Notes: generated from the letters alone by a model not told the origin. Counted from the first letter of the stretch, positions 17,798 through 21,804 are shown. The stretch: 64,000 bases of DNA from Alphaproteobacteria bacterium (GCA_045614025.1 JAZLCE010000014.1:2825-66824), one strand, 5' to 3'. A program made the numbers and translations.

Positions 17798-17820
17798 TCT
17801 TCTTCTTTAAACCATAAAAA

Positions 17821-17853
17821 AACCGCTTGTTTAAGTTTAACAGGCGGTTTTTT
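17821..17853 (+). terminator. Intrinsic terminator after ankyrin gene pair
   Basis: The stem CCGCTTGTT / AACAGGCGG (one G-U pair) is followed by T6. Confidence 0.7.
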
Positions 17854-17920: not shown

Positions 17921-17955
17921 AAAAACCCACTAGCAAAGGGGCAGTGGGTTTCTTT
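17921..17955 (-). terminator. Intrinsic terminator of the convergent coiled-coil gene
   Basis: On the minus strand, ACCCACT - loop - AGTGGGT is followed by T5-6. Confidence 0.6.
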
Positions 17956-17980
17956 TATGTTTTGTTTAATTGATGTTTTT

Positions 17981-18610
17981 TTATTGTTTTTCTCGTCCCT
18001 CACGTCTAATTGTTGGTGTTGGCTTGCGATGCGCTTTTAACATTTGAACAATTTGTTCTTCAGTTAAGTCATTTTTAATTGTTTCAGGGGAAGCTAACGG
18101 AACTGGAGCTGTTTGCTTTGTGGGTCGAGATTGGCTTGCAATTTGTTGTTGCTGTTGAGCTTGTTGCTCTTTTTGCTTTCGCGCATTTTCTTCTAATATC
18201 TTATTCCAATTATTTTCAGATCTAACACGAGAAATCTTATTTTCATTATTGGAAATTTCACGGAGAATAGAGCTTTTTTCTTCGTTTAAGCGTTTTAATT
18301 CTAATTGAGTTCTGCCACGTTGATCTTCTTTGTTTCTTTTTTGATATTCATAATCACTAGAAATGCGATTTTTATGAAACATCAACTCGTTATAATTGTC
18401 ATGGTATTTAGAAAAATTGTATCCATAAAGATATTGCTGAGCTTCATTTTGCGCGTTTCTAATCTTGCTTTCTAAATCAGAGATTTCTTTATTGTATTGG
18501 CCAATAGATGTTTCGCATCTTGAAATATTTGACTGAATAGATACAAGTTTGTTTTTTAAAGCATGTATTTCTTGTTGATAGTTATATTCTCTTTTATCAG
18601 CACCATACAT
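17981..18610 (-). CDS. Orphan coiled-coil protein
   Basis: A GGAGG RBS precedes the ATG at 18610. The K/E/Q/N-rich sequence looks heptad-like (ALKNKLVSIQSNISRCETSIGQYNKEISDLESKIRNAQNEAQ) and includes a Q-run, KQKEQQAQQQQQ. Confidence 0.6.
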   Translation of the reverse strand: MYGADKREYNYQQEIHALKNKLVSIQSNISRCETSIGQYNKEISDLESKIRNAQNEAQQYLYGYNFSKYHDNYNELMFHKNRISSDYEYQKRNKEDQRGRTQLELKRLNEEKSSILREISNNENKISRVRSENNWNKILEENARKQKEQQAQQQQQIASQSRPTKQTAPVPLASPETIKNDLTEEQIVQMLKAHRKPTPTIRREGREKQ

Positions 18611-18794
18611 TTTTTCCTCCATTATGTGTTATGCACTGAATTCATTATATAATAATAAAAATTTTTTTCATATATTTTTTTCTTTATTTTTAAGCATTTT
18701 TTCATTTTTTTGTTATGAATGCCAAACTTTTAGAGCTGGGGCTGAGGTTAAAATAATCTTGTTTGCTTTTTTATACCCTAATTTTTAAGAGCTT

Positions 18795-19615
18795 ATGCTT
18801 TATCTATCTCAACACTGCACCACAATGATCCAATATCTCATATTTAACACATTATATCTCGCATACCCAACAACCCTGTACCTCACGCATATCTCACACC
18901 CAGAGCACACTCGTGCGCTCCACACCTCGTGCACCCCACCACCTCACACCCACGCGCACCTCACACTCCACCAGCACATCTCACACCCGCGCGCACTCGC
19001 GCACTCCACCTTACACCCAGCAATCTACCAACCCCACATCCAGCCTACACCCACGCACACCCGTGCACACTCCACTAGCACATCTCACCCCACGCGCACC
19101 ACACCAGCACACCCACGCACTCCACAGCCAAACACCCACGCACACCCGTGCACACTCCACTAGCACAGCTCACCCCCATACTCACCCCACCAGCACCACA
19201 CCCTCGCGCACTTCACCAGCCCACACCCACGCACTCCACCAGCCCACACCCACGCGACCTCGTGCACCCCGCCACCTCACACCCGGGCGACCTCGTGTAC
19301 TCCACATTCAGCACTCCACCAGCCCCATACCAGCCCCACACCAGCCCATATCCGCGAGCTCTATACCTTACACACCCCACCAACACCATGCCCAGAGCAC
19401 TCCACTAGCCCACACCTGCGCGCGCTATACCTAACTCCACACCTAGAGCACTCCACCAACACCACACCAGCACTCCACCTCATATCTCACACCCACGCGC
19501 ACCCCACCAGCCCATGTCCTGTGCACACGTTGCGCCACTATATTATATACTTTATTGTATCATCTTATGTTCTTTATCATCTTATATATTTATACACCAT
19601 ATCATTTTATATCGC
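18795..19615. repeat. G-depleted C/A-rich degenerate repeat tract (core about 18880..19540), non-coding
   Basis: The + strand is almost only C, A and T; I count 5 G in the 60 nt of 19021..19080. An exact 36-mer occurs at 19047..19082 and 19132..19167. A 19-mer, CACCAGCCCACACCCACGC, occurs at 19214 and 19237 (period 23). All three forward frames are open at once. Confidence 0.85.
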
Positions 19616-19802
19616 GTTAAAGTAAAACTTTAAAAATGTTAAATAATATACTGATATTAAAGAATATATATTAAAAACAAGTGAATTTTTAACTGGTGCT
19701 TGAAAAATAAAACGATTTATGCTATTCTGCCAAAGAAATGGATTTTTTTATCAAGGGATTGAAAAAAAATATATATGATTTATCTTAATTTTAGGAGGTT
19801 TT

Positions 19803-20558
19803 ATGAGAAGAAAATTAATCGCCGGTAACTGGAAAATGAATCAAACAAAATCAGATGGTTTAGCTTTGGCTAAAGCTGTTTTTGAAGTTGCTTCAAAAGA
19901 AAAAGGAAATTTTGATGTTTTGATTTGTCCAGGGATGAATTTATTGCCATTAATTGCTGAATTGCCACATGAAGGTGTTTATCTTGGCGCTCAAGATGTT
20001 TCTGTTGCTCCAAAAGATTTTGGGGCTTATACAGGGGATGTTTCTGCCGCTCAATTGAAAGATTTAGGGGCAACTCATGTGATCGTTGGCCATTCTGAAA
20101 GAAGAGCCATGCGCCATGAAACAGATGCTGTTGTGCGCGAAAAAGCAGTCAATGCCATTGAAAAAGGGTTGATTCCTGTGATTTGCGTTGGCGAAACATT
20201 GGAAGAAAGAGAAGAAGGCAAAGCTTTAGAGGTTGTTTGCCGTCAAATTAAAGAATCTGTTCCTTCTGTTTCAACTGGGGAAAACACAGTGATTGCTTAT
20301 GAACCAGTTTGGGCCATTGGAACAGGCAAGGTGCCATCAATTCAAGATGTTGAAGAAATGCACACGGCTATTCGCGAAGAAATCAAATCTTTGTTGGGTG
20401 AAGAAGTTGCTTCAACAATGAAAGTTTTATATGGTGGTTCAGTTAAACCTTCAAATGCAAAAGAATTGCTTTCAGTTCCAAATGTTGATGGTGCTTTAAT
20501 TGGGGGTGCCAGCTTGAAAGTTGAAGATTTCTGGGGTATTGCTGCCACTCAAATTTAA
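19803..20558 (+). CDS. tpiA: Triosephosphate isomerase
   Basis: 251 aa with an AGGAGG RBS. Motifs include IAGNWKMN, VIVGHSERR, AYEPVWAIGTG and GGASLK. Confidence 0.95.
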   Translation: MRRKLIAGNWKMNQTKSDGLALAKAVFEVASKEKGNFDVLICPGMNLLPLIAELPHEGVYLGAQDVSVAPKDFGAYTGDVSAAQLKDLGATHVIVGHSERRAMRHETDAVVREKAVNAIEKGLIPVICVGETLEEREEGKALEVVCRQIKESVPSVSTGENTVIAYEPVWAIGTGKVPSIQDVEEMHTAIREEIKSLLGEEVASTMKVLYGGSVKPSNAKELLSVPNVDGALIGGASLKVEDFWGIAATQI

Positions 20559-21156: not shown

Positions 21157-21427
21157 TTTTTGATATCATCTTAAAAACACTTCAAAAGTTTTTTTGGGTG
21201 TTTTTTTCTTAAACTAAAGCTTTAAAAATGCTTTATAATATATTGAAAATATAGCTATTTTATCTTCTTAAAATTAAATTTAATTTTTAAAATTTAAAAA
21301 GCATTAATGCTTTTAGCAATGTTTTTTTTAGGAAGAAAGCTTTTTATTTTTGATAAGTTTATTGGGAAGGTGTGTTTTTTTTATCGTGTCAGGCTTGTTG
21401 GCATAGAAGATGTGTTGCATTGATATA

Positions 21428-21589
21428 TCTGCCTCGTTAGTGGGCGGTGGGTTCTTTGTTGGTGCGGGTATATGCCCCGTTGGTGTGAGGCATTGCCTCT
21501 GTTAGTATGTCTGCCTCGTTAGAGTGCTGTGGGTTCTTTGTTAGTGCGGCTATTTGCCCCGTTGATGTGATGCGGGTTCGCTTCAGTGG
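21428..21589. repeat. Two tandem ~81-bp G/T-rich units
   Basis: TCTGCCTCGTTAG...TGGGTTCTTTGTT...TGCCCCGTTG recurs at 21428 and 21509. The first ~58 nt of each unit are about 85% identical by eye. The + strand is A-poor and G/T-rich, the opposite polarity to 18795..19615. Confidence 0.75.
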
Positions 21590-21729
21590 GTGAAAGTTAT
21601 TTATGATGCTTTAGGGTGGGGGCTTAAGTGTTTCTTTGTCAAGAACCGTTGAATTTTGCAAGCGAATGTTAATAGTTTTCGTTTATATAAAACGTATAAA
21701 AAAAAGACCCCAAATGGGATCTCTTTTAA

Positions 21730-21804
21730 TGGCTCCAGCGGTAGGGCTCGAACCTACGACCGATCGGTTAACAGCCGATTGCTCTACCACTGAGCTACGC
21801 TGGA
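21730..21804 (-). tRNA. tRNA-Asn (anticodon GUU), CCA encoded
   Basis: The reverse complement TCCAGCGTAGCTCAGTGGTAGAGCAATCGGCTGTTAACCGATCGGTCGTAGGTTCGAGCCCTACCGCTGGAGCCA folds by hand into a 75-nt cloverleaf with anticodon loop CTGTTAA. Confidence 0.95.

What the first reader, a model, noticed from the sequence alone, without database searches (positions are those of the whole stretch)
18795..19615. ~820-bp G-depleted, C/A-rich degenerate repeat tract upstream of tpiA, compositionally foreign to the genome
In a genome that is AT-rich elsewhere, this tract is dominated on the + strand by C and A. I count 5 G in the 60 nt of 19021..19080, and those G occur mostly in CG or AGC contexts. It is built from CAC/CCA-type words such as CACACCCACGCGCAC, CTCCACCAGC and CACTCCAC. 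An exact 36-mer occurs at 19047..19082 and 19132..19167, and a 19-mer repeats with period 23 at 19214 and 19237. The flanks (18795..18880 and 19540..19615) are also G-poor but T-rich. All three forward frames are open at once, which points to a compositional artefact rather than coding. The complementary strand carries many GG/GGG runs (GGTGTGGGTGCGTGGG...), so i-motif or G-quadruplex-type structures, slipped-strand variation or an unusual structured RNA are conceivable. A related word, CCCCGC(C/A)CACCACAC, recurs in the repeats next to tRNA-Lys (1130..1150 and 1335..1350).
Basis: seen in the sequence. Interest (0 to 1): 0.6.

Follow-up and report, generated by a model that had tools for sequence, protein, structure and literature searches.

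The report
Hypervariable C-rich spacer before a promoter
The odd C/A-rich, G-starved stretch in front of tpiA is real and non-coding: it is the fast-changing part of a repeated two-part element (variable C-rich tract plus a conserved promoter-like box) found only in a small clade of uncultured gut Alphaproteobacteria, and it most likely acts as a landing strip for the termination factor Rho.

Summary
The tract is not an assembly artefact: four independent assemblies carry a C-rich tract between the same flanks.

It is not coding, not a known RNA, and not prone to G-quadruplex or i-motif formation. Canonical G4 motifs are depleted relative to composition.

It is one member of a family. G000 has at least 10 such tracts, and four closely related species of the genus carry the same element. 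Each tract is about 50% C and 4-11% G, 100-1000 bp long, and built of degenerate repeats. Most abut a conserved 24-mer box, GCGTTWAAGTAAWACTTTAAGAAT, usually followed by TGnTATTAT. The whole unit points at a co-directional gene.

Between conspecific strains the flanks are 93-100% identical, but the core (18888-19495) is only about 50-65% identical and differs in length. Two near-identical strains differ only by a 111-bp indel bounded by a 15-bp direct repeat. Cassette gains and losses also break at tracts.

The sense RNA would be C-rich, G-poor, unstructured and free of Shine-Dalgarno (SD) sequences, and rho is present. My best mechanism (about 0.4) is therefore a Rho-loading barrier upstream of a regulated promoter. 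A functionless minisatellite riding on a mobile promoter cassette is nearly as likely.

Earlier notes of this scan gave similar Rho readings on other DNA.

The parts
18795..18887 (+). Left flank of the tract: G-poor and T-rich
   Evidence: It is 93-97% identical to strain L075. It is absent from the other species, L003, where homology ends at 18692.
18888..19495 (+). Hypervariable C-rich, G-poor core (degenerate minisatellite)
   Evidence: C is 0.51 and G 0.115. Degenerate repeats have periods 10-85. Identity to a conspecific strain is only 18-78% per 60-bp block, with many indels, while the flanks are 93-100% identical. There is no other copy in the genome. Codon-position bias is absent.
19496..19613 (+). 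Right flank: G-poor and T/A-rich, with a degenerate TATCATCTT repeat
   Evidence: It is conserved between strains apart from indels at 19554-19626. Homology to L001 resumes at 19578. TRF reports a period of 8-9.
19614..19637 (+). Conserved 24-mer box GCGTTAAAGTAAAACTTTAAAAAT. It contains the palindrome TTAAAGT-AAA-ACTTTAA and is a likely transcription-factor site.
   Evidence: The box occurs 8 times in G000 and 5-14 times in 4 of 20 other genomes of the genus, with 0 hits to the reversed control pattern. Across 38 unique copies the arms are invariant and the spacer varies.
19599..19676 (+). Full conserved block shared with other copies of the element
   Evidence: It is 82% identical over 78 bp to C34:13801-13724, and also matches C35, C31 and C6.
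19652..19660 (+). TGaTATTAA, an extended -10-like element 14 nt after the box (degenerate in this copy)
   Evidence: 23 of 38 copies have TGn plus a -10-like hexamer at exactly this offset, and TATTAT is the commonest form. Promoter function is inferred, not shown.
19700..19728 (+). tpiA's own promoter-like site, TTGAAA-17-TATTCT
   Evidence: Found by the consensus scan. It is conserved in relatives that lack both tract and box, L004-L008.
19803..20558 (+). tpiA (triose-phosphate isomerase), the co-directional downstream gene
   Evidence: ORF. Hits Pfam TIM, PF00121.
17981..18622 (-). 213-aa coiled-coil gene of no family, divergent from the tract and variably present
   Evidence: ORF, with only a weak AAA_13 hit. 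It is present in L003, L075 and L076 and absent in L001 and L002.

Best explanation
The tract is the variable half of a clade-specific composite element, laid out in this order:
- a strand-polar, C-rich and G-poor degenerate minisatellite of 100-1000 bp;
- often a CT-rich segment;
- a conserved AT-rich box of about 50 bp, TCGCGTTWAAGTAAWACTTTAAGAAT-N5-ATAAC-N-TATTGATATTAT;
- 75-450 bp further on, a co-directional gene.

**Shown.**
- The family, its polarity and its clade restriction.
- The non-coding nature of the tract.
- Turnover by repeat-mediated indels.
- Breaks of homology exactly at the tracts.

**Inferred.**
- The box is an activator-dependent promoter. Its near-palindrome is centred about 42 bp upstream of the start site predicted from TGnTATTAT.
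- Any RNA polymerase that enters the tract in the sense direction makes a long, C-rich, G-poor, unstructured RNA with no ribosome-binding sites. Rho loads on this RNA and ends transcription in the AT-rich box region.
- The downstream promoter and gene are thereby shielded from read-through and spurious transcription.

Only composition matters for such a role, so the sequence is free to turn over by slippage. At tpiA the element is an ancestral insertion just upstream of the gene's own promoter, and it may be a decaying copy there.
For: **Family and polarity.**
- A genome scan finds similar tracts in C1, C4, C18 (3 copies), C19 and C34, and further G-poor, C-rich stretches precede the box copies in C31 and C35.
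- The box recurs with a G-poor, C-rich upstream 200 bp. G is at most 0.09 in 66% of 35 copies against 3.4% of random windows. C is at least 0.30 in 51% against 0.5%.
- Units lie back-to-back in divergent regions.
- A co-directional ORF follows in 22 of 33 copies.

**Rho-substrate features.**
- C/G is about 4.5 over 600 nt, and reaches about 12 in other copies. RhoTermPredict asks for C/G above 1 over 78 nt, and ratios of 3 or more are rare in E. coli (PMC6407284).
- The sense RNA folds at -0.2 to -13 kcal/100 nt. The genome mean is -15.7 and symmetric 63%-GC sequence gives -35.
- There is no SD-like word, and YC dimer density is 0.25 against 0.08 in the window.
- GG is depleted two-fold across 19 tracts, 24 against 49.6 +/- 6.9.
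- rho is present in the genome.

**Composition kept while sequence is rewritten.**
- Strain and species comparisons show this at three loci.

**Promoter geometry.**
- TGn plus a -10-like hexamer sits at a fixed offset of 14 in 23 of 38 copies.
Against:
- At this locus two intrinsic terminators (17817-17853 and 17921-17957) already stop the upstream ankyrin operon, and the adjacent gene is divergent. Little sense transcription should therefore reach the tract.
- In C34 and L001 a hairpin terminator also precedes the tract.
- 600-1000 bp is far more than Rho needs.
- Words shared between tracts (CCACGCG, CACCTCGCCAC, ACTCCAC) fit common descent as well as they fit function.
- In L003 the tpiA tract is only T/A/C-rich, and in L002 it is gone, so C-richness is not held everywhere.
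- This copy's -10-like element is degenerate (TATTAA).
Confidence: 0.4

Rival explanations
1. The tract is a functionless, self-propagating minisatellite that hitch-hikes on a mobile promoter (or 'moron'-type) cassette. Its C-rich, G-poor make-up and its polarity are inherited from the ancestral element. Arrays expand and contract by slippage. Old parts decay under the genome's AT-biased mutation into T-rich, still G-poor sequence.
For: - Tracts at different loci and in different genomes share a vocabulary, and some share segments. C4 and C34 are 88-96% identical over 50-80 bp.
- One indel is bounded by a direct repeat.
- The flanks of this tract are T-rich and G-poor, and the whole L003 tract looks like a C-to-T-decayed array.
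- The tract is lost in L002.
- There is no evident need for a barrier at tpiA.
Against: - Genomes of 1.3-1.8 Mb keep 8 or more such tracts per genome at about 50% C, against a 33%-GC background, in five species.
- G4 motifs and GG steps are depleted beyond what composition predicts, which hints at constraint.
- Polarity relative to the downstream gene is invariant.
Confidence: 0.3
2. The tracts serve, or at least act, as recombination joints. They are compositionally uniform, gene-free linkers whose short shared words let promoter-gene cassettes be inserted, deleted and swapped without damage to genes.
For: Homology between genomes breaks exactly at tracts at three loci.
- **tpiA locus.** The left neighbour is a 213-aa gene, nothing, or an 82-aa ORF.
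- **C18:2050-2260 against G003.** A 2.4-kb two-gene cassette sits inside the tract in G003.
- **C18:14002 against G003.** The alignment ends at the box/tract border, and G000 carries an extra inverted unit plus an endonuclease-I gene.
- Many copies abut contig ends or lie in prophage-like regions.
Against: - Accessory regions vary anyway, so co-location with breakpoints may be incidental.
- No recombinase, target duplication or inverted terminal repeat was found.
- The window tract shares no long stretch with any other tract.
- No reverse transcriptase is present.
Confidence: 0.15
3. The G-rich complementary strand is the active one. It would act through a G/T-rich antisense RNA, an R-loop, G-quadruplex or i-motif DNA, or Z-DNA. 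Such structures would form upstream of the promoter and regulate it or stimulate recombination, as at Neisseria pilE, Borrelia vls or immunoglobulin switch regions.
For: - GC skew is strong, -0.6 to -0.7.
- The antisense RNA is predicted to fold more strongly, -26 to -32 kcal/100 nt.
- Purine-pyrimidine alternation is enriched in this tract, 0.62 against 0.47 +/- 0.02.
Against: - Canonical G4 and i-motif patterns are depleted: 0 against 5.9 here, and 3 against about 21 over ten tracts.
- Alternation is not enriched in most other tracts.
- No convincing promoter points from the box into the tract. This comes from reading the consensus, and the scan gives only weak matches.
Confidence: 0.05
4. 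The tract encodes a Pro/Thr/His-rich protein. Gene callers predict a 294-aa ORF in strain L075.
For: - One frame is open for 294 codons in L075 and L076, from an ATG in the conserved left flank.
- The 111-bp indel is a multiple of 3.
Against: - There is no codon-position bias (p = 0.7-0.78, against 1.7e-20 for tpiA).
- The same ATG gives only 122 aa in the window, with frames broken differently.
- The repeat periods 10, 11, 16, 23 and 85 are not multiples of 3.
- No SD sequence is present.
- The openness of the frames is what this composition predicts.
Confidence: 0.02

Closest known systems
Rho utilisation (rut) sites and Rho-dependent terminators (lambda tR1, trp t', the rho leader); criteria as in RhoTermPredict, PMC6407284
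   Same: The RNA would be C-rich, G-poor, unstructured and untranslated on the sense strand. It is followed by an AT-rich zone. The sequence is free to vary while the composition is kept.
   Different: - It is 5-10 times longer than needed.
- It is built of degenerate tandem repeats and is hypervariable between strains.
- It sits upstream of a promoter-like box rather than after a gene or in a leader.
- C/G is 4.5 here and up to about 12 in other copies.
- Rho dependence is untested.
Intergenic VNTRs and minisatellites of reduced alphaproteobacterial genomes, such as the Wolbachia VNTR loci (PMC3287509) and the Ehrlichia ruminantium variable tandem repeats (recalled from my own knowledge of Collins et al. 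2005)
   Same: They are non-coding tandem repeats in intergenic DNA whose copy number differs between close strains through slippage.
   Different: - There is no fixed unit here.
- The strand asymmetry is extreme and the tract is GC-rich in an AT-rich genome.
- The tract is always joined, in one polarity, to a conserved box.
- There are many dispersed copies that share a vocabulary.
Phage 'morons': autonomous promoter-gene-terminator cassettes inserted between phage genes (own knowledge: Hendrix, Juhala and co-workers, 2000)
   Same: These are single-gene or few-gene units with their own promoter, often encoding secreted or accessory proteins. They lie in prophage-like regions and are gained and lost as modules.
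   Different: The non-coding insulator-like part lies upstream of the promoter and is a C-rich tract, not a downstream hairpin terminator. One unit sits in front of a housekeeping gene.
G-rich, GC-skewed recombination loci: the Neisseria pilE G4 with its sRNA, the Borrelia vls locus, and immunoglobulin switch regions (own knowledge)
   Same: They show strong GC skew and high GC content in an AT-rich genome, a degenerate repeat nature, and an association with sequence change.
   Different: - Canonical G4 motifs are depleted here.
- No promoter is seen that would transcribe the G-rich strand.
- The tract is non-coding and is not next to an antigen gene.
Class II activator-dependent promoters, where a CRP/FNR-type site is centred near -41.5 and paired with an extended -10 (own knowledge). 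This applies to the box only.
   Same: The box has a near-palindrome, TTWAAGT-N3-ACTTTAA, centred about 42 bp before the start site predicted from TGnTATTAT. There is no -35 hexamer. The arms are invariant and the spacer varies.
   Different: The binding protein is unknown and the start site is unmapped. The arms can also be read as direct repeats 12 bp apart, which is the OmpR/PhoB style.

Membership tests
Rho-dependent terminator / rut site | At least 78 nt with C above G and frequent, regularly spaced C (YC dimers) | tested here: met
   C is 0.51 and G 0.115 over 608-660 nt. YC density is 0.25 against 0.08 in the window. The criteria come from PMC6407284.
Rho-dependent terminator / rut site | The RNA is unstructured and free of ribosomes | tested here: met
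   The sense strand folds at -6 to -13 kcal/100 nt against a genome mean of -15.7. There is no SD-like word and there are only 7 potential start codons. Codon-position bias is absent.
Rho-dependent terminator / rut site | The organism has Rho | tested here: met
   PF07497 hits at G000:C2:37366-37587 with E 2e-30, inside a 446-aa open frame.
Rho-dependent terminator / rut site | The tract is transcribed in the sense direction, and its 3' ends depend on Rho | not testable with these tools
Upstream intrinsic terminators at this locus argue for little incoming transcription.
G-quadruplex / i-motif forming tract | Four or more runs of at least 3 G (or C) separated by short loops | tested here: not met
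   There are 0 motifs with loops up to 7 or up to 12, against 3.2 and 5.8 in shuffles. Ten tracts together give 3 against about 21.
Minisatellite / VNTR | Head-to-tail degenerate repeats with length polymorphism between strains | tested here: met
   TRF reports periods 10-33 at 2-11 copies, and there is an 85-bp duplication at 98% identity. The intergenic length is 1180, 1419 or 1530 bp. One 111-bp indel has a 15-bp direct repeat at its ends. The caveat is that all of these are short-read assemblies.
Protein-coding gene | A conserved frame, codon-position bias, and indels in multiples of 3 | tested here: not met
   Chi-square p is 0.7-0.78 against 1.7e-20 for tpiA. The frames differ between strains.
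Known structured RNA (Rfam) | A match to a covariance model | tested here: not met
   No match at the gathering threshold in the whole window apart from 2 tRNAs. No match at E up to 1 in 18500-19900.
MITE / insertion sequence | Terminal inverted repeats, target-site duplication, and a transposase somewhere | tested here: not met
   There are no inverted repeats in 18700-19700. No conserved left end appears among the copies. Only the right end, the box, is conserved.
Retroelement-made repeat (DGR, retron or telomerase-like addition) | A reverse transcriptase in the genome | tested here: not met
   PF00078 gives no match in G000, which is 97% complete.
Activator-dependent (class II type) promoter, for the box only | A dimer-type site at a fixed distance from a -10 element, upstream of genes | tested here: inconclusive
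   There is a fixed 14-nt offset to TGn plus a -10-like hexamer in 23 of 38 copies, and a co-directional ORF follows 22 of 33 copies. No start-site or protein data exist.

The most novel reading that the evidence does not exclude
The tracts are the joints of a previously undescribed cassette system. Strand-polar, C-rich, G-poor minisatellite linkers would do two jobs. First, they would insulate each activator-controlled promoter-gene cassette through Rho. Second, they would provide gene-free, word-sharing DNA in which cassettes are inserted, deleted and exchanged. Such cassettes include secreted proteins, SAA-domain proteins and nuclease genes. This would make it a recombinase-less analogue of integron or moron shuffling in host-associated Alphaproteobacteria.
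Probability: 0.15. Interest if true: 0.7.

Novelty: new variant of a known kind. Interest (0 to 1): 0.5.

Why it matters
If the Rho reading holds, this would be a natural, dispersed 'insulator part'. It would be defined by composition rather than sequence, physically coupled to a regulon-type promoter box, and free to evolve at minisatellite speed.

That would help in three ways:
- annotating Rho-dependent barriers in uncultured, AT-rich bacteria, where they are otherwise invisible;
- explaining why assemblies of this clade break at these sites;
- providing a very fast strain-typing marker.

If the tracts instead prove to be cassette joints, they would show a new route for modular gene exchange in reduced, host-associated genomes. 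For tpiA itself the finding is probably of little consequence, because the gene keeps its own conserved promoter.

Tried and rejected
- **Assembly artefact or chimera.** Rejected. Three further assemblies from other samples (L075, L076, L077) and two other species (L001, L003) carry a G-poor tract between the same flanks.
- **G4 or i-motif.** Rejected, because the motifs are depleted.
- **Z-DNA.** Purine-pyrimidine alternation is enriched here. Among the other nine tracts it is clearly raised only in C4end and marginally in C18b1, so it is not a family trait.
- **Helical or other periodicity.** No consistent peak was found.
- **Coding.** Rejected.
- **Known RNA family.** None was found.
- **Retroelement origin.** No reverse transcriptase is present.
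- **Boundary against a MucR-type silencer.** No MucR is present.
- **Similarity to phage or plasmid records.** None was found. The box is absent from IMG/VR.
- **Metagenome scan for the box.** In JGI metagenomes the full element appears on only 5 contigs of the same kind of organism. The other 13 hits are unrelated.
- **Chi-like words.** CCACCAGC, the complement of E. coli Chi, recurs in the tpiA tract by eye. It is not among the words shared by the 15 tracts compared, so it was dropped.
- **Sigma-28, ECF or sigma-54 promoter readings of the box.** These were examined by eye only and no fit was found.
- **Strain-level comparison at a second locus by exact protein look-up.** It failed because nothing was on record. 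Species-level comparisons were used instead.
- **Link to the tRNA-Lys repeats.** Rejected, because only a 15-nt word is shared.

Full report
**Observation.**
- The tract is exactly as described. The core 18880-19540 is 51% C, 25% A, 12% T and 11.5% G, in a window that is 16% C and 19% G.
- The 36-mer, the 19-mer and the G count were reproduced.
- Strand asymmetry lies 5-6 sd from the genome mean. Only 24 of 15,643 200-bp windows in the 1.57-Mb genome are comparably skewed.
- The repeats are degenerate, with periods of 10, 11, 16, 23, 33 and 85, and there are no inverted repeats.

**Whose genome.**
- The window is contig C14 of a 43-contig, 33%-GC, 97%-complete MAG.
- TpiA relatives name it an uncultured Alphaproteobacterium of ruminant hindguts.

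**Not an artefact, not coding, not a known RNA.**
- Contigs from three other samples that encode the identical TpiA carry a C-rich tract between the same flanks. Two sister species also have a G-poor tract there.
- Codon-position composition is flat (p = 0.7-0.78, against 1.7e-20 for tpiA). The frame that is open for 294 codons in one strain is broken in the window.
- Rfam gives nothing.
- No phage or plasmid record resembles the tract.

**It is one of a family.**
- A composition scan finds similar tracts in C1, C4, C18 (three), C19 and C34, several of them at contig ends. Further G-poor, C-rich stretches precede the box copies in C31 and C35.
- On the C-rich strand most run into a CT-rich segment and then a conserved box, GCGTTWAAGTAAWACTTTAAGAAT. 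The window's copy is at 19614-19637.
- The box occurs 8 times in G000 and 5-14 times in four of 20 other genomes of the genus. There were no hits to the reversed control.
- Those four genomes are also the closest relatives by a shared LexA-like protein, at 88-99% identity.
- Upstream of 35 copies, G is at most 0.09 in 66% (random windows 3.4%). C is at least 0.30 in 51% (random 0.5%).
- The consensus over 38 copies is TCGCGTTtAAGTAAaaCTTTAAGAAT-N5-ATAAc-N-TaTTGATAtTat. 23 of the 38 copies have TGn plus a -10-like hexamer at a fixed 14-nt offset. A co-directional ORF follows 22 of 33 copies.
- The arms of the near-palindrome TTWAAGT-N3-ACTTTAA are invariant and its spacer varies. Its centre lies about 42 bp before the predicted start site. 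I read this as an activator-dependent promoter, which is inference.
- In divergent regions two units lie back to back with the tracts in the middle.
- Downstream genes are mostly orphan secreted or accessory proteins in prophage-like contexts. tpiA is the odd one out.

**The tpiA copy is an old insertion.**
- Relatives with 80-82% TpiA identity have only a terminator and the promoter TTGAAA-17-TAxxCT in this spacer.
- The window, L001 and L003 have tract plus box inserted just upstream of that promoter. L002 keeps a degenerate box and no tract.
- Homology between species stops at the tract borders.

**Hypervariability.**
- Against a conspecific strain (L075) the flanks are 93-100% identical. 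Identity falls to 18-78% per 60-bp block between 18888 and 19495 and recovers at 19495.
- The intergenic length is 1180, 1530 or 1419 bp.
- L075 and L076 differ by 4 SNPs in 6 kb and by one 111-bp indel bounded by the 15-bp direct repeat GCACCCCACCAGCCC. This is the signature of slippage, although short-read collapse cannot be excluded.
- The alleles use the same words (CCACCAGC, CACACCCACGC, CTCGTGCAC, CCCAGAGCAC) in different order. Turnover of degenerate units therefore explains the low identity, and hypermutation need not be invoked.
- The window tract has no other copy in the genome. Only 19599-19676 is shared with other units.
- Different tracts do share enriched 7-mers.

**Structural variation at tracts.**
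- At C18:2050-2260, G003 carries a 2.4-kb two-gene cassette (zinc-ribbon and nuclease-like genes) inside the tract.
- At C18:14002 the alignment with G003 ends at the box/tract border. G000 holds an extra inverted unit and an endonuclease-I gene.
- At tpiA the left neighbour differs among species.

- Canonical G4 and i-motif patterns are depleted: 0 against 5.9 here, and 3 against about 21 over ten tracts.
- Purine-pyrimidine alternation is raised here but not in most other tracts.
- There is no common periodicity.

**Mechanism.**
- The feature held constant is composition, with a fixed polarity towards the downstream gene.
- The sense RNA would be C-rich, G-poor and weakly folded, at -0.2 to -13 kcal/100 nt. 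The genome mean is -15.7 and symmetric sequence of the same GC content gives -35. It has no SD-like words and is rich in YC dimers.
- G residues are isolated, with GG at half the expected count.
- These are the published hallmarks of Rho loading sites (PMC6407284), and rho is present.
- I therefore favour a Rho-loading barrier that shields the box promoter from incoming sense transcription, at about 0.4.
- Points against:
  - no RNA data could be had;
  - this locus already has two intrinsic terminators upstream;
  - other loci have a hairpin before the tract;
  - the length is excessive;
  - in L003 the tract is merely T-rich.
- Those points, together with the T-rich, G-poor flanks that look like C-to-T-decayed array, keep a neutral 'hitch-hiking minisatellite' reading nearly as likely (0.3). 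A recombination-joint reading stands at 0.15.
- Earlier AI notes of this scan reached Rho-type readings for G-poor tracts in phages and plasmids of other genomes. I had the idea independently and treat those notes as agreement, not evidence.

Noticed in passing
window 1108-1190 and 1313-1396: Two direct repeats of about 83 bp lie beside tRNA-Lys(UUU) at 1395-1470 (-). Each ends in a hairpin (CCACCCATAAAGGGTGG) plus a T-run. They look like stacked cassette ends at a tRNA and are unrelated to the tpiA tract apart from a 15-nt word.
   Followed up: partly
window 21380-21625: A G/T-rich, A-poor 81-bp tandem repeat containing GGGTTC words lies just downstream of tRNA-Asn (21730-21804, -). It may consist of tRNA-end-like att repeats. 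It is not a member of the box-linked family, as no box is present.
   Followed up: no
G000:C31:331-1071 and G000:C19:5277-6110: These are paralogous bacterial proteins. The C31 copy has a serum-amyloid-A domain (PF00277, E 6e-20) and follows a tract-plus-box unit. The C19 copy shares the N-terminal part but was not scanned. An SAA domain is unusual for a bacterium.
   Followed up: no
L073 2525-4351 (G003:C54): A two-gene cassette of zinc-ribbon-repeat proteins, the larger with an EFDGAQWH nuclease-like block, is inserted inside a tract that is uninterrupted in G000 (C18:2050-2260). The same cassette end abuts a tract in G008 (L079).
   Followed up: partly
G000:C4:5860-5885, C31:215-240; L041, L054, L055: A subset of units carries the operator-like TTTTGTCACAATTGTCATTTTTT about 45 bp after the 24-mer. 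An inverted copy lies left of the C19 tract.
   Followed up: no
L075 versus L076 (ENA ERZ27297727 and ERZ28633395): Two samples hold strains that differ by 4 SNPs in 6 kb. They also differ by a 111-bp tract indel bounded by a 15-bp direct repeat.
   Followed up: yes
L082, L084, L087, L092, L093, L096 (soil metagenome contigs, GC about 0.58): An unrelated conserved element, a GC hairpin followed by GAAGTTAAAGTAATGCTTTAAGAATT, matched the box pattern by chance.
   Followed up: no
window 17817-17853 and 17921-17957: Two hairpin-plus-T-run terminators lie between the ankyrin gene and the convergent 213-aa gene. The second reads as a terminator on both strands.
   Followed up: partly
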